A stretch of 11,445 bases of DNA from Octopus sinensis (lineage: Eukaryota): NCBI RefSeq assembly GCF_006345805.1, contig NW_021828430.1, forward strand, positions 1 to 11,445, in the 5' to 3' direction. Below are positions 89-10,310 of the stretch, piece after piece; the stretch's first letter is position 1; the number at the start of each line of letters is the position of its first letter. The translations under genes and the position numbers were made by a program. The notes under the pieces are model-generated. The model searched no databases. It saw only the letters and a program-made list of their open reading frames with translations, and was not told the origin of the DNA.

Positions 89-374
89 GAAGGCATATGG
101 CCTAGTGGTTAGAGCAGTAGACTTGCGGTCGTGGGATCGCGGGTTCATGTGTGTGTTTATGAGCGAAACACCTAAGCTCCACGCGGCTCCGACAGAAGGT
201 AATGGCGAAACTTCTGCTGAGTCTTACGCTACAACTTTCTCTCACTCTTTCCTCCTGCATCTTGCAGCTCACCTGCGACGGAAAGGCGTCCCGTCCAGGT
301 GGGGAACCTATACGCCAAGGAAACCAGGAAACCGGCCCTTACGAGCCACGTGTGACTCGAGAAGGAAGAAACAA
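89..374 (+). mobile_element. tRNA-derived SINE with a truncated B-box
   Basis: A-box TGGCCTAGTGG at 98-108, then TTAGAGC and a tRNA-like arm. The B-box starts as GGGTTC (141-146) and is cut short. GC-rich body (CCTGCGACGG...CGTCCCGTCCAGG...GGAAACC), short A-rich end, then a (TATG)n microsatellite. Confidence 0.75.
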
Positions 375-1003: not shown

Positions 1004-1190
1004 TACAGTTCTATATTTAAGAGATGAGAAATTATGTGCATTATTTACATTATTTACATTTGTCGGATATTTGTCATCATCTTGTTACTTGCTCACACAA
1101 CGTTTCGGCTGATATACCCTCCAGCCTTCATCAGGAGTCTTGGGGAAATTTCGAACCTTGGTTCTCATTCCTAAGGTATTTTTCGATGTT
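1004..1190 (-). mobile_element. Penelope-like terminal-repeat (pLTR-like) module carrying a minimal hammerhead motif; 3' part of a composite element
   Basis: Minus strand reads AACATCGAAAAATACCTTAGG...AGACTC-CTGATGA-AGGCTG..CAGCC-GAAACGTT-GTGT...TGTAAATAATGTAAATAATG...TATAGAACTGTA. Positions 1041-1135 recur inverted at 2048-2139. Confidence 0.7.
1095..1138 (-). ncRNA. Minimal type I hammerhead ribozyme motif, palindromic stem III (dimer type), slightly degenerate
   Basis: ACTC-CTGATGA(1134-1128)-A-GGCTG-[10 nt]-CAGCC-GAAA(1106-1103)-CG-TT-GTGT. Stem II is a perfect 5 bp. The AACGTT palindrome replaces stem III. Stem I ACTC/GTGT has one mismatch. Putative cleavage triplet GUU. Confidence 0.6.
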
Positions 1191-2047: not shown

Positions 2048-2139
2048 CCTGATGAAGGCTGGAGGGTATATCAACCGAAACGTGTTAACAACAAACAATA
2101 TCAGAATACATATCCGTCAAATGTAAATAATGTAAATAA
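2046..2139 (+). repeat. Inverted partial copy of the hammerhead-bearing module (inverted repeat of 1041-1135)
   Basis: CAC-CTGATGA-AGGCTGGAGGGTATATCAACC-GAAACGTGTT...ATATCCGTCAAATGTAAATAATGTAAATAA matches the reverse complement of 1041-1135 with several substitutions and small indels. Confidence 0.9.
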
Positions 2140-2997
2140 ATATTTTTTATTTTACTAATTCATCCTATGAATCATTTGATATTTAATATAATATTATATA
2201 ATTTGTATACAATACTATAATAATTCCCCTAATTCACTGCCTTCCTCCCATTTCTACTACTCCCCAGCGTCTACCCGGACCGTCTCAACGTCCACGGGGG
2301 CTGGTAGCGCCCACATTGTGAACCTATGGATTAGACCTTCAGAAGTCCGCTTCGCCTGAAGTTTATTTATATCAATAATTTCTAAACAAACAGTGATGAT
2401 TATTAACGGTTGTTCCTACCTTACCTGTTTCAAAATTCTGGGACACGCATCTTTTCTCCTCTCACCCCACACCTCGCAGAACAAGTCTTATTGCCGGTGG
2501 GGGCCGCAATATATGTTTTGAACGGTCTCCTTTACCTAAAGTGCGAACGCTTCCCATGTTAATCCATGCAATGGACGATGTGGTAGAGTTACTTTCTCGA
2601 GCTCTTTTCATAATGCAATGTTTGGTGGTCGTATTCGGACCAGGCACCAGGTTGGTATTTGTATTGACCCCAACCGGAAAGTGTGATGACTTGATTCTGA
2701 TAGGATCCTATGGAGGAGGTGCCTGGGAGTTTTACACCCAGAACCAACCCAGAAATAGGGGGCGGAGAAAATGAATTGATGGACCCCAAGGATGACAAAA
2801 GTAAATTCTGTTACTGGAAATTATATAAACGTTGAAAATGTTTCTGATACACTGATTAAATTAAGATTCTCCTTTCAAAAACTTTTGGCCGAAGGGAAAG
2901 AAGACAGAAACGAGGAATATGGTGAATTTTGTCAGGTATAAAGGTTCACGGAATTGATTTAGAGAAATATAGAAACCATTGCAAAGCCGAGGATGTA

Positions 2998-4285
2998 TTA
3001 GGTTGGCAACTAAGTTCTCACCGTTTTTTAAATTTTAATTTTTTAAAAACGTTTAATAAAAAATAGCAACTAATTAATCAACGATGTATTCACCCTTGTT
3101 GATTACAACTTCTTCCCAACGTTCAACAAGATTTTCAATACCTCGTTGGTAGAAATCACCAGATTTCGACTCGAAAAATTCATCCAACCAAACTCTCAAT
3201 TCTGCATCAGTATTGAACGAAACTCCGCCCATAGCATTTGAAAGAGATCGAGAGAGGCGAAAATCCGTTGGTACCAAATCAGGAGAGTACGGTGGGTGTG
3301 GCAGCACTTCCCAGCATGCGTTTGAATGGCTTCCTTGGTCATATTGGCGATATGAGGGCGGGCGTTGTCGTGCAGCAGAAGAACTCCATGCTGACGATTA
3401 GGTCTTTTCTCTTGAATAGCCGTGTTGAGCCGTTCCATCTGTTGAACATAGAGTTCCGCGTTGACCGTTTGGTTCCGTTCAAGCAATTCGTAATGGATAA
3501 TCTCTTCCCAGTCCCACCATACGCACAACATCGTTTTACGCGTAAGAAGATCTTGTTTTACGCGCAGTGTCGCTTGTTTACCGGGGCTAAGCCATTCCTT
3601 ACGCTGCTTCATATTGATGTACAGGTACCATCTTTCGTCGCCAGCAACGATTCGGTAAAGAAATCGTTGTTTGTGTCCATGAGTTGAGCGGTGTCGAACA
3701 AGCAAACCAGTGGAGATTTTGGCTTATTGATTTTTGTTGTTGTCACTTAAAGCATGCGGAACCCATGCTCCATACTTCTGAACCTTTCCCATCGAGTGAA
3801 AATGCTTCTCTATAACAGTGTGGGTGCATTCCATTTTCTCTGCCAGTTCCCATGTCGCTTGACGAGAATTTTCGTGCAAAAGTTGGTTTAATTGCTCTTC
3901 ATCGAACTCAACTGGACGGCCAGAACGAGATGCGTCTTTGAGGTCAAAATTTCCATTTTTGAACTTGGCATACCAACCACGAGCGGTTCATTCAGCTATG
4001 GTACCCTCTCCATACACAGAACAAATGTCGTGAGCAGCTTTTGCGGGCTTAGAATCTTGATTAAAAGCAAAAAGGAGGTGTCGAAAATGCTCGTTTTTCT
4101 TAACTTGACATTCCATTTTAATGATCAGAAAATAAATAAAACTTAGCTAAAATTAACTAGAAAAAAAAAAGATTCCAAAATGATTCAAAAATAGATTTCT
4201 CGAAAAAGATAGATTCCAAAATTTAAAAACGCAATAAATTCCAAATTAAAAAAAAAAAAACGCGGGAGCTTAATTGCCAACCCAA
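2998..4285 (-). mobile_element. Full-length mariner (Tc1/mariner, DD34D) DNA transposon, probably mellifera subfamily, inactive
   Basis: Left TIR TTAGGTTGGCAACTAAGTTCTCACCGTTTTT starts at 2998. Right TIR (reverse complement) TTGGGTTGGCAATTAAGCTCCCGCGTTTTT ends at 4285. TA target duplications at 2996-2997 and 4286-4287. Length 1,288 bp, with an internal transposase. Confidence 0.95.
3074..4116 (-). pseudogene. Mariner transposase pseudogene
   Basis: From ATG at 4116: MECQVKKNEHFRHLLFAFN...RSGRP...WVPHAL...IVAGDERW...LHDNARPH...HPPYSPDLVPTDF...GEYIVD*. There are 34 residues between the 2nd and 3rd catalytic Asp once a 1-nt deletion at ~3314 is repaired. In-frame stops at 3990-3988 (TGA) and 3726-3724 (TAA). 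Confidence 0.95.
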
Positions 4286-4306
4286 TATATTTACTGGTAA
4301 TTATGA

Positions 4307-4807: not shown

Positions 4808-4873
4808 AAGGGGTTCCCAAACCTTTTATTTAAATGAGTTTACCCACCAATCCATTTTAATATGCTTATCCTT
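4808..4873 (+). mobile_element. Putative left end of a hAT/Charlie-type MITE
   Basis: AAGGGGTTCCCAAACCTTTT resembles the Charlie-type terminus CAGGGGTTCCCAAAC with the first base changed. Confidence 0.45.
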
Positions 4874-4878
4874 ATATA

Positions 4879-4942
<64 letters not shown>
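4874..4942. repeat. (TA)n microsatellite
   Basis: Directly visible. Confidence 0.97.
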
Positions 4943-4947
<5 letters not shown>

Positions 4948-5119
4948 TAAATATTAGGGAATAAATCCAAATTTACAGGGAAAAATCAGATTTATGATTA
5001 AATCGATTTTATAGTAAAATATTATAAAATATTATTCGAGACAAAACCACTATTTTGCAAAACAAACAAGGAAAGACTTAATTAATACATAAAATTTTAA
5101 TAAATAGTCAAAAAAACCG

Positions 5120-5162
5120 CCACTACAATCGTTTCTTGTCTTGATCGACAATCTTCAGGTGG
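5120..5162 (-). ncRNA. Minimal type I hammerhead ribozyme with an intact catalytic core
   Basis: Minus strand CCAC-CTGAAGA-TTGTC-gatcaa-GACAA-GAAA-C-gatt-G-TA-GTGG. Stem I CCAC/GTGG, core CUGAAGA, stem II TTGTC/GACAA, GAAA, stem III AC/GU with a 4-nt loop. Predicted cleavage after GUA, between 5124 and 5123. Confidence 0.85.
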
Positions 5163-5329
5163 ACTTCCAATCTAAAAAATCAATATTTTAAAATATAAAA
5201 ATAATAATTTTAAAATAATTAAAGTATGAATGAAAAAATATAAGTATATAATCCATATATAACCTATCTATAATCCATATATAAACAATATATAAACAAT
5301 ATATAAACTAAAAAAACCTATCAACAATT

Positions 5330-5388
5330 AAATATAAAATATAAAATATAAAATATAAAATATAAAATATAAAATATAAAATATAAAA
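5330..5388. repeat. (TATAAAA)n heptamer tandem repeat, about 8 copies
   Basis: Directly visible. Confidence 0.9.
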
Positions 5389-5627
5389 CAAAACAAAAAA
5401 AAAAATAATAATAATAATATAATAATAAACTATATATACACCCATACGCATATACCTAATTATATATAACCATATCTAACTACATACACTAAATCACACA
5501 CCTATATATATATCCCTATACATACACATAAAAATGTCTAGGCAACTATAAATAAATAAAATAGCTAAATACTTCAACACAATACTTATTCATACTCCCA
5601 CACACACACACATACAACCCACATTCA

Positions 5628-6397
5628 CGCTCTAGAAAACGGACATCACTCAAAACTATGAACGGAGAAATGGAATAAATGGAATTAAAATTATATACAC
5701 TTTGTAAAACAAACACTACTTAAAATTATGAATGAAACAATGCAATAAAAACAACAGACATCGCATCGCACAAATTACTACAATTACAAATTACTACAAT
5801 TCCTTATCAAACCTACCATGATAACCAAATTCATAAAAACATATAATGATAAAATCTCCCTTTACTAAACTCTATAACAAACCTATATAGCAATCCCCCT
5901 AACCTAAACATTCACACACAAATACACACACGTAAACCACACACCCACGACATATACAAATACCCACACCACTTACACATACCAATACATACATATAAAC
6001 CTCAACATATACTCCAAAAACCCACTCAACCCCACACAGACAAATAAACACAAAAATTATGAATGGATTCATTTATAAAACTACCATGATAATCTAAAAC
6101 TCACAAAACAGAAATGATAAAACCTCCCTTTACTAAACACTAAAACATACTTATATAGCAATTCATTTAACCTATACATTCACACACCAAACCACTCGTA
6201 AACCACACACACATAACAAATACAAACTCCCACCCCACTCACACACACCCACAAGTACATATAAGCCTCAACATATACACCAAACAAAATTACTTTACCA
6301 AGGAACTTAACATATATATAAAAAGTATAACCGCTCTGGAAACGAACATCTCTAAATTAATGAATGGAGAAATGGAATAAATGGAATTAAAAATAAA
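5628..6397. repeat. Older diverged internal repeat units of the A/C-rich element
   Basis: CGCTCT.GAAA...GGAGAAATGGAATAAATGGAATTAAAA occurs at ~5628 and ~6332. CTCCCTTT(A/G)CTAAAC occurs at ~5857, ~6124, ~6548 and ~7377, each followed by related ACATTCACACA...CGTAAACCAC blocks. Confidence 0.85.
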
Positions 6398-7077
6398 ATT
6401 CACGTGGCAAAACGAACACCACTCAAAAATTATGAATGAAACAATATAATAAAACAACCAACATCGAAAATAGACAAATTACTACGAATTCCCTAAAAAA
6501 AAAAAAAACCATAAACCAAAACTCTTAAAAAACATATAACGATAAATCTCCCTTTGCTAAACTCTATAACAAACCTAGATAGTAATCCCCCTAACCTAAA
6601 CATTCACACACAAACACACACGTAAACCACATACCCACGACTTATACACATACCTAAACTAACTTATAAACCTCCATATACACCAAAACCCACTCCCTCC
6701 CACACAGACAAATTAACTCATACATCCCAAAACCTAAATAACAAACCCATATACACATTCACACACAAACACACACACACGCAAAACACACAAACACAAC
6801 ATATACATATACTCCCTCACATATACGCATATACATACTCACTAAACTCAATATATACAACAATATTTACACACCCACACTCATACAGATAAATAAATTA
6901 TACAACTAAAAACTCGCACACAATCTCATATACATAAACACTCCTATGAAAACAACATTAAATACATCGTAATTAACCAGAATATCAAAAATAACAATAT
7001 GACATAAAGGTAAATAAAATACATACTTACAATTCAGTGTCAAATTATGAAGTGAAATTAAATTCTTAGCCGTTAAA
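6398..7077 (+). repeat. ~680-bp direct repeat, copy 1
   Basis: ATTCACGTGGCAAAACGAACACCACTC...AAATTCTTAGCCGTTAAA, near-identical to 7231-7904. Confidence 0.95.
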
Positions 7078-7230
7078 AAATCAAATCAAAATTACGTTAC
7101 CATAGAAATAACTTATGTAAAAAAAAGACTAACAATCAACTTACAGTAACCCAAACCCATTCTCTATGCCTACCTCACTACTACACTATTCCATTCACAA
7201 TTCCAAACAACGCTAGTCCACCTCCCGGTT

Positions 7231-7904
7231 ATTCACGTGGCAAAACGAACACCACTCAAAATTATGAATGAAACAATGTAATAAAACAACCAACATCGAA
7301 AATAGACAAATTACCACGAATTCCCTAAAAAAAACCATGATAAACCAAAACTCTTAAAAAACATATAACGATAAATCTCCCTTTGCTAAACTCTATAACA
7401 ACCTATATAGCAATCTCCCTAACCTAAACATTCACACACAAATACACACACGTAAACCACATACCCACGACTTATACACATACCTAACTAACTTATAAAC
7501 CTCAATATACACCAAAACCCACTCCCTCCCACACAGACAATTAACACATACATCCAAAAACCTAAATAACAAACCCATATACACATTCACACACAAACAC
7601 ACACACACGCAAAACCACACACACAAACAATTACATATACTCCCTCACATATACGCATATACATACTCACTAAACTCGATATATACAACAATATTTACAC
7701 ACCCATACTCATACAGATAAATAAATTATACAACTAAAAACTCGCACACAATCTCATATACATAAACACTCCTATGAAAACAACATTAAATACATCGTAA
7801 TTAACCAAAATATCAAAAATAACAATATGACATAAGGATAAATAAATACATACTTACAATTCAGTGTCAAATTATGAAGTGAAATTAAATTCTTAGCCGT
7901 TAAA
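7231..7904 (+). repeat. ~680-bp direct repeat, copy 2
   Basis: Same start and end strings as 6398-7077, with scattered substitutions and homopolymer length differences. Confidence 0.95.
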
Positions 7905-8234
7905 GGGTAAAGACCCCCTTCGGCCATGAATGACCATGGGTTGCACCTAGAAAGTTACCCTCCTAGACACAAGTCTGGGCGGGGTTGTTTATGGAAGACC
8001 AGCAGTCGCCCATGCATACCAGCCTCCCCTCTCCACGCCACCAGTGTTATCGAAGGGAAAGACAAAGGTCGATACAGCTTGGCACCAGTGACGTCGCAAC
8101 TCATTTCTACAGCTGAGTGAACTGGAGCAACGGGAAATAAAGTGCCTTGCTCGAGAACACAACACGCAGCCCGGTCCGGGATTCGAGCTCACAACCTCAC
8201 GATCGTAAGCTCGACGCTCTAACCACTGAGCCAT
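7905..8234 (-). mobile_element. tRNA-derived SINE with a CORE-like central domain
   Basis: A-box TGGCTCAGTGG (8233-8223), B-box GAGCTCGAATCC (8190-8179), ACG (Arg-like) loop. These are followed by TGTGTTCTCGAGCAAGGCACTT...CAGTTCACTCAGCTGTAGAAATGAG, which resembles the MIR/CORE domain. Tail CTTTACCCTTTA. Confidence 0.88.
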
Positions 8235-8302
8235 ATATATATATATATATATAAATTTAATAAATAAAATATATGCATATATACATACATACATATATAT
8301 AT

Positions 8303-8671
8303 GTACAGGCTTAAAAAAAGCCCTCAATGTTGGTTTCATTGTCCTGTTTTTATTCTCTATGTGTGCTGTATTTTTATTTGTATTGCTTTTACGTCCTGTT
8401 CTTGTCAATTTTTTCTTTCCTTGTTTTACCCCTCTGCAAAAGAATTTTATTTAATTCTTTTGCAGGAAGGACTTCTTCGAGCGGATCGTGTTCTGCCCTT
8501 ACCTTCGAAACACGCATTGAGTCGAACGAGGGACAGCTGATGAAGGGGAATATTCCTTGTATTGTTTGTCTTGTACTCTGTTTTTTCGTTGTTAAAAAAA
8601 GTCCGTTTCCATGTTTGTTTTTACGTTTTCGTTTCTCGTTGTGTTCTACGTTTATTTGTGGTGTCCTGTAC
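8303..8671 (+). mobile_element. T-rich ~370-bp element embedded in (TA)n, with short inverted ends and a hairpin
   Basis: TA-rich microsatellite on both sides. Termini GTACAGG and CCTGTAC. Perfect 13-bp hairpin at 8434-8465. GAAA at 8507-8510 and CTGATGA at 8537-8543. Confidence 0.5.
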
Positions 8672-8991: not shown

Positions 8992-9020
8992 TATATGTAT
9001 GTATGTATATATATATATAT
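8938..9020. repeat. (TA)n/(TATG)n microsatellite
   Basis: Directly visible. Confidence 0.97.
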
Positions 9021-9210
9021 GTAAAAAAAATACAAACTGGGACAAGAACGCAAAACTTTTAGAAGACGATACAAAAAACACGGACGGGACATTCGAAGCC
9101 TTCAATCTTCAGTCAAGTACCGGATCGCAATTTCGGCTGATTAATCTTGAAATTGCTCCAATCTGGCCAGGAAAATGTAAGCTAAGCGCATTAGATCCCT
9201 TGGAAGAATC
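9021..9210 (-). mobile_element. ~190-bp repeat fragment embedded in (TA)n, with a T-rich 3' tail on the minus strand
   Basis: Bounded by (TA)n on both sides. Minus strand has CAGCC-GAAA...CTGAAGA-TTGAAGGCT, then a T-rich tail similar in style to 8550-8670. Confidence 0.5.
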
Positions 9211-9694: not shown

Positions 9695-9900
9695 GCGCGC
9701 CGGGCGAAATATCTACCGGTATTTCGTCTGCCTCTACGTTCTGGGTTCAAATTCCGCCGAGGTCGACTTTGCCTTTCATCCTTTCGGGGTCGATTAAATA
9801 AGTACTAGTTACGCACTGGGGTCGATATAATTGACTTAATCCGTCTGTCTGTCCTTGTTTGCCCTCTCTGTGTTTAGCCTTTTGTGGGTAGTAAAAAAAT
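9695..9900 (+). mobile_element. tRNA-derived SINE, 5'-eroded, monomer 1
   Basis: B-box GGGTTCAAATTC at ~9743-9754. Central domain GAGGTCGACTTTGCCTTTCATCCTTTCGGGGTCGAT...AAGTAC. Tail ...TGTGGGTAGTAAAAAAAT. Confidence 0.85.
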
Positions 9901-10069
9901 AGGTATTCCGTCTGCCGTTACGTTCTGAGTTTAAATTCCGCCGAGGTCAACTTTGCCTTTCATCCTTTCGGGGTCGATAAATTAAGTACCAGTTGTATAC
10001 TGGTGTCGATCGAATCGACTGGCCACCTCCCCAAAAATTTCGGGCCTTGTGCCTAGAGTAGAAAAGAAT
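9901..10069 (+). mobile_element. SINE monomer 2, with the same central domain and a different tail
   Basis: GGTATTCCGTCTGCCGTTACGTTCTGAGTTTAAATTCCGCCGAGGTCAACTTTGCCTTTCATCCTTTCGGGGTCGAT repeats 9718-9794. Tail GGGCCTTGTGCCTAGAGTAGAAAAGAAT. Confidence 0.85.
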
Positions 10070-10090
10070 GTATACCACTGGCATTCCTAA

Positions 10091-10310
10091 GACGGCGTGT
10101 TGGCAGAGTGGTTAGCACGCCGGGCAACATCTGTAGCGGCATTTCGTCCGTCTGTAGGTTCTAAGTTCAAATTCTCCCTAAGTTGACTTTGCTTTTCATC
10201 GATTTTGGGATGAAAGTACCAGTTGATGGAATAAGTATCAGTTGATCGGTGGGATCGATGTAATCGGCTTACTCCGCCCCTATTATTACTGGCCCTCCGA
10301 TAAAATTTGT
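10091..10310 (+). mobile_element. Older, more diverged copy of the same SINE family with an intact A-box
   Basis: A-box TGGCAGAGTGG at 10101-10111, B-box AAGTTCAAATTC at 10163-10174, then GTTGACTTTGCTTTTCATC...AAGTACCAGTTG...TCGATGTAATCG. Confidence 0.8.

What the first reader, a model, noticed from the sequence alone, without database searches (positions are those of the whole stretch)
5120..5162. Complete 43-nt hammerhead ribozyme hidden in AT-rich DNA
Seen: all conserved core nucleotides (CUGANGA, GAAA, UH) in type I order, with stem I 4 bp, stem II 5 bp, stem III 2 bp and a GUA cleavage site. The stem III segment ACGAUUGU is one change from the palindrome ACGAUCGU and still self-pairs using G-U, which fits dimeric cleavage. 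Base pair 10.1-11.1 is U-A rather than the usual G-C. Established: such minimal hammerheads mark PLE terminal repeats and retrozymes. Its stems are unrelated to the motif at 1095-1138, so it represents a second family.
Basis: partly seen in the sequence, partly recalled or inferred. Interest (0 to 1): 0.75.

Follow-up and report, generated by a model that had tools for sequence, protein, structure and literature searches.

The report
Penelope-type minimal hammerhead ribozyme remnant
The 43 bases are a complete minimal hammerhead ribozyme motif, likely the tail of a broken Penelope-like jumping gene in an animal genome and predicted to cut only weakly and only in pairs, which is a kind described in 2014 and therefore ordinary.

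Summary
The minus strand 5162-5120 carries every hammerhead core nucleotide in type I order: helix I 4 bp, helix II 5 bp (U10.1-A11.1), helix III 2 bp, GUA site, predicted cut 5124/5123. It is the only such motif in the window. 0 of 3000 shuffles gave one (strict rule); 10 of 2000 did (relaxed rule). Rfam has no hammerhead hit. The anatomy fits the Penelope-like-element (PLE) hammerheads with a short palindromic helix III, and U-A at 10.1-11.1 is already in the published table (PMC4209133). Two bare copies are predicted to fold into the two-site dimer, but with natural flanks neither monomer nor dimer does. The motif sits 179 nt from a (TA)n run, at the end of a 2.7-kb strand-biased, internally duplicated non-coding block. 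No reverse-transcriptase or endonuclease remnant was found, and no paralogous copy could be aligned, so PLE origin and activity are inferred. The motif at 1095-1138 is a different, classical minimal family. The scan has noted this kind at least eight times on other genomes. Verdict: new member of a known kind; interest 0.2.

The parts
5120..5162 (-). Minimal type I hammerhead motif (helix I 4 bp, helix II 5 bp with U10.1-A11.1, helix III 2 bp with near-palindromic loop, GUA triplet; predicted cut between 5124 and 5123)
   Evidence: Sequence and descriptor scan; shuffles
5125..5132 (-). Self-complementary helix III segment predicted to form an 8-bp intermolecular helix in a dimer
   Evidence: Duplex and co-folding
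4945..5119 (-). AU-rich tail after the motif (79% A+U) with an AUUAAA hexamer starting at 5101; no long reading frame
   Evidence: the hexamer may be chance in such AU-rich sequence
4873..4944 (.). (TA)n microsatellite at which the tail ends; inferred insertion site
   Evidence: Tandem Repeats Finder; (TA)n as PLE target from PMC8557442 passages
5230..7904 (-). Strand-biased non-coding block upstream of the motif (plus strand 5% G, 25% C, 48% A), with internal duplications (6398-7077 vs 7231-7904 at 95%; 5628-6052 vs 6332-6720 at 77%); inferred to belong to the same element; no hammerhead in its units
   Evidence: no protein match
7905..8232 (-). SINE-like insertion that bounds the block on the far side
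   Evidence: Composition break; SINE identity is recalled from its tRNA-like head, not tool-confirmed (ARAGORN finds no tRNA)

Best explanation
The 43 bases are a complete minimal type I hammerhead motif that likely marks the 3' end (pseudo-LTR) of a truncated Penelope-like retroelement or a non-coding derivative of one, likely inserted at a (TA)n run. Shown: core, three helices, near-palindromic helix III, AU-rich tail, (TA)n neighbour, a 2.7-kb strand-biased block upstream, no coding remnant. Inferred mechanism: in a tandem transcript of the element two copies would pair their helix III segments (8 bp) and exchange helix I strands, forming two active sites that cut after GUA and release unit-length RNA with defined ends for reverse transcription by an element-encoded or borrowed PLE protein. 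This single genomic copy has no partner in the window, and its flanks are predicted to disrupt the fold, so it is likely silent or very slow in vivo.
For: Only complete motif in the window and beyond chance. All of Perreault's acceptance criteria are met: intact core and paired 10.1-11.1, 1.1-2.1, 15.1-16.1 (PMC3088659 passages). Short helix I without extension, U-rich 5' and AU-rich 3' flanks and a small palindromic helix III match the PLE hammerheads (PMC4209133 text and Fig. S3); rows with a palindromic insert and H17 = A (Saccoglossus 2, Marsupenaeus, D. willistoni) and with U10.1-A11.1 (S. mansoni 3) are in that table. Two bare 43-mers co-fold into the two-site dimer as minimum-energy structure, -21.4 against 2 x -6.5 kcal/mol. 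The window holds two damaged copies of a second, classical minimal family in inverted arrangement, so this genome carries such elements. As a positive control, the same kind of descriptor found hammerheads in 8 of 21 loci (5 of 18 contigs) with a PLE reverse-transcriptase motif; where sense to the ORF they lay 190-293 nt after its end (RVT_1 in 3 of 3 ORFs tested).
Against: No reverse transcriptase or GIY-YIG remnant anywhere in the window (Pfam; tblastn with the ORFs of 21 motif loci; profile of 14 such ORFs, best 6.4 bits, and without composition correction a reversed control outscored every real segment). No second copy of this family in the window and no aligned paralogue, so conservation and covariation are untested. 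The strict published descriptor (gaaannuh) is not met, and G10.1-C11.1 is not present. With 8-20 nt of flank, helix I has probability 0.01 or less in the monomer and the two-site dimer is 5-9 kcal/mol above the minimum. The palindrome is weak evidence (27 of 256 and 50 of 256 tetramers do as well). For the one PLE tested biochemically, hammerhead cleavage was not needed for insertion in vitro and no RNA ends were seen at the site (PMC11167929 passages), so the processing role is itself unproven.
Confidence: 0.7

Rival explanations
1. A solo monomer of a non-LTR retrozyme (short tandem, hammerhead-bearing, circular-RNA element), with the upstream block an unrelated neighbour.
For: No ORF is linked. 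Retrozymes carry type I hammerheads, occur in molluscs and also as solo monomers (PMC7229834 passages; bioRxiv 10.64898/2026.07.22.740005 part 1 of 5). D. willistoni has a similar motif in 450-bp tandem repeats.
Against: No tandem unit carries the motif: the duplicated units upstream lack CUGANGA on the motif's strand. Retrozyme hammerheads usually have a 6-bp helix I with loop contacts; here helix I is 4 bp with no stable extension. The preprint argues that retrozymes derive from PLE terminal repeats, so this rival differs little in origin.
Confidence: 0.14
2. A chance look-alike in AT-rich DNA.
For: No Rfam hit; fold not better than shuffles; 10 of 2000 shuffles pass a relaxed rule, which matters in a scan of very many windows; two departures from the minimal consensus (no clear extra base after A9, U-A instead of G-C).
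Against: 0 of 3000 shuffles pass the stricter rule that this motif passes; all 11 helix pairs are Watson-Crick; helix III is near-palindromic; 0 of 191 chance core matches had both stems; another hammerhead family lies in the same window.
Confidence: 0.06
3. An active, monomeric, host-adopted ribozyme that cuts a host transcript read on the minus strand.
For: The core is intact while both copies of the neighbouring family are damaged; a 2-bp helix III with tetraloop supports some monomer cleavage in axolotl HHR_Amex2; an AUUAAA follows 22 nt after the cut.
Against: The active monomer fold has probability 0.02 even in the bare 43-mer and near zero with flanks; no loop-loop contact is evident; GUA and U10.1-A11.1 are non-optimal (GUA: general knowledge); no host gene is seen in the window; an intact core is equally explained by a younger insertion.
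Confidence: 0.05
4. A real hammerhead of a different retroelement class (for example a non-PLE element with a long strand-biased body) that borrowed the motif.
For: The 2.7-kb upstream block matches no protein family or PLE profile.
Against: Nothing positive points to another class; minimal hammerheads of this anatomy are reported from PLEs, Terminons and their derivatives.
Confidence: 0.05

Closest known systems
PLE hammerhead variants with a small palindromic helix III (Drosophila, Aedes, Marsupenaeus, Saccoglossus 2; Cervera and De la Pena 2014, PMC4209133; main text parts 1-2 of 4 and supplement file 2 parts 2-3 read)
   Same: Type I order, intact core, 4-bp helix I with no defined loop contact, 5-bp helix II, palindromic insert in helix III, U-rich 5' and AU-rich 3' flanks; H17 = A and non-G-C 10.1-11.1 pairs occur in that table.
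   Different: Palindrome imperfect (one G-U type change); no clear extra base between A9 and 10.1; U10.1-A11.1 is rare (1 row seen in the part of the table read); no flanking ORF or second terminal repeat found here; no octopus row in the file searched.
Strict min-HHR of metazoan PLEs (descriptor gaaannuh, PMC4209133 Fig. S7)
   Same: Core, stem sizes within the descriptor's 3-7 bp, dimer-type design.
   Different: Six bases, not two, lie between GAAA and UH, so the strict descriptor does not match. The window's other family (1041-1135, 2048-2139) is of this strict type but damaged.
Non-LTR retrozymes of animals (PMC7229834 passages; bioRxiv 10.64898/2026.07.22.740005 part 1 of 5)
   Same: Type I hammerhead in non-coding, low-GC DNA; weak helix III favouring dimers.
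   Different: No 170-400-nt tandem units with a hammerhead in each; no canonical helix I with loop contacts.
Poseidon PLE of Anolis (PAc) hammerhead (PMC11167929 passages)
   Same: Minimal hammerhead in a PLE terminal repeat; AT-rich target preference.
   Different: There the ORF starts at helix II; here no start codon overlaps the motif and the frames after it close within 21 codons.

Membership tests
Type I hammerhead ribozyme | Core C3 U4 G5 A6 N7 G8 A9, G12 A13 A14 A15.1, U16.1 H17 in type I order | tested here: met
Type I hammerhead ribozyme | Paired positions next to the core (1.1-2.1, 10.1-11.1, 15.1-16.1), criteria of PMC3088659 | tested here: met
   C-G, U-A, A-U; criteria
Type I hammerhead ribozyme | Site-specific self-cleavage after H17 | not testable with these tools
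   Needs an in vitro assay or RNA end data
Canonical (extended) type I hammerhead as modelled in Rfam | Covariance-model match; 6-bp helix I with loop 1-loop 2 contact | tested here: not met
   No hammerhead family up to E 10; helix I 4 bp without stable extension
Strict min-HHR (Cervera 2014 descriptor) | GAAA-NN-UH (no helix III insert) | tested here: not met
   Six-base insert; strict descriptor finds nothing, extended one finds only this site
PLE hammerhead variants with small palindromic helix III | Short helix I (2-5 bp), larger helix II, self-complementary helix III insert | tested here: met
   4 bp, 5 bp, 8-bp self-duplex with two G-U pairs; two-site dimer is the minimum-energy fold of bare copies; 27 of 256 random tetramers do the same
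PLE hammerhead consensus | Extra base between A9 and 10.1 | tested here: inconclusive
   Two registers fit: no extra base with 5 bp, or extra U and extra A with 4 bp
PLE hammerhead consensus | G10.1-C11.1 (a greater-than-80% consensus, not invariant) | tested here: not met
   U-A here in either register; U-A, A-U and G-U exceptions are in the published table
PLE hammerhead consensus | U-rich 5' and AU-rich 3' flanks | tested here: met
   Sequence; tail 79% A+U; consensus line
Penelope-like element (the host element) | RT plus GIY-YIG ORF next to the terminal repeat | tested here: not met
   No remnant in the window; most genomic copies are reported as truncated solos, so the element is called 'likely PLE-derived', not filed as a PLE
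Penelope-like element (the host element) | Direct or inverted terminal repeat containing a second hammerhead copy | tested here: not met
   Single copy in the window
Penelope-like element (the host element) | Multi-copy family with conserved core and covarying stems | not testable with these tools
   No genome held; no paralogous copy aligned
Non-LTR retrozyme | Tandem units of about 170-450 nt, each with a hammerhead | tested here: not met

The most novel reading that the evidence does not exclude
The motif terminates a family of long (about 3 kb or more) non-coding, C-poor, internally duplicated elements in a probable cephalopod genome: a non-autonomous Penelope-dependent retroelement ten times longer than known retrozymes, with U10.1-A11.1 and GUA as its family consensus and an active dimeric ribozyme.
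Probability: 0.15. Interest if true: 0.45.

Novelty: new member of a known kind. Interest (0 to 1): 0.2.

Why it matters
If real and active it adds one more natural variant (U10.1-A11.1, GUA, imperfect palindrome) to a class of which single genomes hold thousands, whose role in Penelope transposition is still unsettled (cleavage was dispensable in the one in vitro system, PMC11167929 passages). My searches found no paper describing cephalopod PLE hammerheads in detail: the squid genome paper counts 235 Rfam hammerhead-1 loci (PMC6962438 passages), and the O. vulgaris repeat paper lists 31 recently active Penelope-like families without mentioning hammerheads in its main text (PMC13282606 passages). 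So it may be an unrecorded family, but not a new kind of system.

Tried and rejected
Rfam, whole window and 5000-5260: no hammerhead match; only microsatellite-driven microRNA hits. Own genome: none held. Exact-pattern scans for the motif with its helix II: 0 in metagenome contigs, 0 in viral contigs. Looser core-plus-helix-III patterns gave 117 loci (of 121 stretches) and 74 loci; 0 of 191 had helices I and II, so all are chance. Sequencing-run index for 4945-7905: 20 of 24 rows hold part of it, 4 hold half or more, in 10 studies and 5 organism labels; no RNA holder listed; none of these runs was laid on the sequence, so they are not used as evidence of copy number or expression. Idea that the plus strand of 5530-7904 is a decayed PLE reverse transcriptase or endonuclease (short recalled motif resemblances): rejected; Pfam 0 relevant hits in 33 translations, word-index searches 0, phmmer on one frame 0 (only one of the three frames was searched this way), tblastn and a 14-ORF profile no better than controls. 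A motif scan of viral contigs for PLE proteins found 0. A 9-base match to the motif's 5' edge at 7215 on the other strand does not extend and is taken as chance. String searches for the motif and for neighbouring half-cores in the supplement of PMC8557442 gave 0, but long sequence runs are cut in that copy. File 1 of the PMC4209133 supplement was not searchable, the supplement of PMC13282606 was listed but not read, and Lunse et al. 2017 (PMC5785218) is not held (known only from its citation in PMC6765202); any of these may list this family. One hand-drawn dimer structure was invalid and its energy was discarded. Earlier scan notes by place and by sequence gave nothing related.

Full report
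Observation. The minus strand from 5162 to 5120 reads CCAC CUGAAGA UUGUC [GAUCAA] GACAA GAAA C [GAUU] G UA GUGG. Numbered on the window: helix I 5162-5159 with 5123-5120, core 5158-5152, helix II 5151-5147 with 5140-5136, GAAA 5135-5132, helix III A5132-U5125 and C5131-G5126, H17 = A5124. All 11 pairs are Watson-Crick. Of 9 CUGANGA sites in the window only this one completes a hammerhead. It passed a rule that 0 of 3000 dinucleotide shuffles passed; a relaxed rule was passed by 10 of 2000 block shuffles. As an outside control, 0 of 191 chance core-plus-helix-III matches from metagenome and viral contigs also had helices I and II. Against it: Rfam gives no hammerhead match and the folding energy is unremarkable (z -0.70). 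I take both as expected for a minimal motif (inference).

Folding. In the bare 43-mer helices I and II form (pair probabilities 0.63-0.95) but helix III hardly does (0.04); the active monomer fold has probability 0.02. Two bare copies co-fold into the textbook two-site dimer, with an 8-bp shared helix III and exchanged helix I strands, as the minimum-energy structure (-21.4 against 2 x -6.5 kcal/mol). This support is modest: 27 of 256 loop tetramers give the same dimer, and 50 of 256 give an equally stable self-duplex. With 8-20 nt of natural flank, helix I falls to 0.01 or less and the two-site dimer lies 5-9 kcal/mol above the minimum. So the design fits dimeric cleavage, but this copy is predicted to fold poorly in context.

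Surroundings. The window is animal repeat DNA: microsatellites, a broken mariner element near 2993-4290 (Pfam Transposase_1, E 1.5e-22; inverted ends) and several SINE-like repeats. From memory the SINEs resemble those of octopuses; no tool confirmed the taxon and no genome is held. On the motif's strand a 175-nt tail of 79% A+U follows, with an AUUAAA at 5101, and ends at a (TA)n run 179 nt from the cut. Upstream lies a 2.7-kb block with strong strand bias (plus strand 5% G against 18-25% in flanking segments) and internal duplications, bounded at 7904 by a SINE-like insertion. Its units carry no hammerhead, and the motif has no second copy in the window. That block and motif form one element is an inference from the shared bias and the boundaries.

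Coding remnant. Short stretches of the block's plus-strand translation reminded me of PLE reverse-transcriptase motifs (recalled). I tested this and it failed: Pfam, word-index searches, phmmer on one frame, tblastn with the ORFs of 21 loci found by an RT-motif scan and a profile of 14 of them, where the best window score was 6.4 bits and, without composition correction, a reversed control scored highest. Those loci served as a positive control: 3 of 3 ORFs tested match RVT_1, and an extended descriptor found hammerheads in 8 of 21 loci (5 of 18 contigs), 190-293 nt after the ORF where sense, and also in inverted position upstream; none had U10.1-A11.1, one had a palindromic 4-nt insert.

Second family. 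The copies at 1041-1135 (minus) and 2048-2139 (plus) are 84% identical over 95 nt and unrelated to the finding in their stems. They are of the strict minimal type (extra A after A9, G10.1-C11.1, two-base insert), each damaged at a different place.

Comparison with what is known. Cervera and De la Pena 2014 (PMC4209133; main text parts 1-2 of 4, supplement file 2 parts 2-3) describe minimal hammerheads in PLE terminal repeats, thousands per genome, mostly as solo motifs from truncated elements, inactive as monomers and slow as dimers. The strict descriptor does not match here (six bases between GAAA and UH), but the paper also describes variants with a small palindromic helix III, and its table has rows with H17 = A, with A-U or G-U at 10.1-11.1 and one with U-A. 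Perreault et al. (PMC3088659 passages) accept any pair at 10.1-11.1 and report widespread palindromic weak helices III. Craig et al. (PMC8557442 passages) give (TA)n as a PLE target and note that Naiads lack canonical hammerheads, so the parent would be a canonical PLE clade (inference). Frangieh et al. (PMC11167929 passages) found hammerhead cleavage dispensable for insertion in vitro. Retrozymes (PMC7229834 passages; bioRxiv 10.64898/2026.07.22.740005 part 1 of 5) are short tandem units, which this is not. Also seen as passages only: PMC3846280, PMC6765202, PMC13282606, PMC6962438.

What it works like versus what it is. It works like a PLE-type dimeric hammerhead, and the motif meets the sequence definition of a type I hammerhead. 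The host element cannot be filed as a PLE on this window, because neither ORF nor second terminal repeat is present; 'likely PLE-derived' is the limit. Conservation among copies, expression and cleavage remain open, since no paralogous sequence or RNA ends could be aligned.

Verdict. Real motif (about 0.94), most likely the tail of a truncated Penelope-like element or derivative (0.7). Eight earlier notes of this scan describe the same kind in other genomes (unchecked, not used as support). New member of a known kind; interest 0.2; most novel open reading (long non-coding PLE-dependent element) probability 0.15, interest 0.45 if true.

Noticed in passing
window 1041-1135 (-) and 2048-2139 (+): Two damaged copies of a classical minimal hammerhead family, 84% identical, pointing outwards about 900 nt apart with (TAT)n runs between them; resembles the inverted arrangement of PLE insertions.
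   Followed up: partly
window 8300-8670 (+), core at 8537: U-rich stretch with an isolated CUGAUGA half-core, preceded by GAAAC about 30 nt upstream and ending at a (TA)n run; may be another PLE-type end ('half core' as in PMC8557442). Does not pass the hammerhead descriptor; no string match in that supplement.
   Followed up: partly
window 9020-9170 (-), core at 9112: Second isolated CUGAAGA half-core with a small hairpin, ending at a (TA)n run; possible further PLE-type end.
   Followed up: partly
window 2993-4290: Broken mariner-type transposon on the minus strand (Pfam Transposase_1 and HTH_48) with imperfect inverted ends.
   Followed up: partly
window 5230-7904: 2.7-kb block with extreme strand bias (5% G on the plus strand) and nested duplications of two ages (95% and 77%); origin unexplained, no protein match.
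   Followed up: partly
window 94-370, 1967-2035, 7905-8232, 9695-10276: SINE-like repeats with tRNA-like heads; three related copies at 9695, 9879 and 10115. Resemblance to octopus SINEs is recalled, not tool-confirmed.
   Followed up: no
L194, L195, L196, L201 (one 12.4-kb contig); also L192, L197, L207, L208: Contigs filed under bacterial genomes hold Penelope-like elements with hammerheads, one as a tandem array at about 3.08-kb spacing with apparently open 891-aa ORFs; most likely animal host DNA left in metagenome-assembled genomes.
   Followed up: partly
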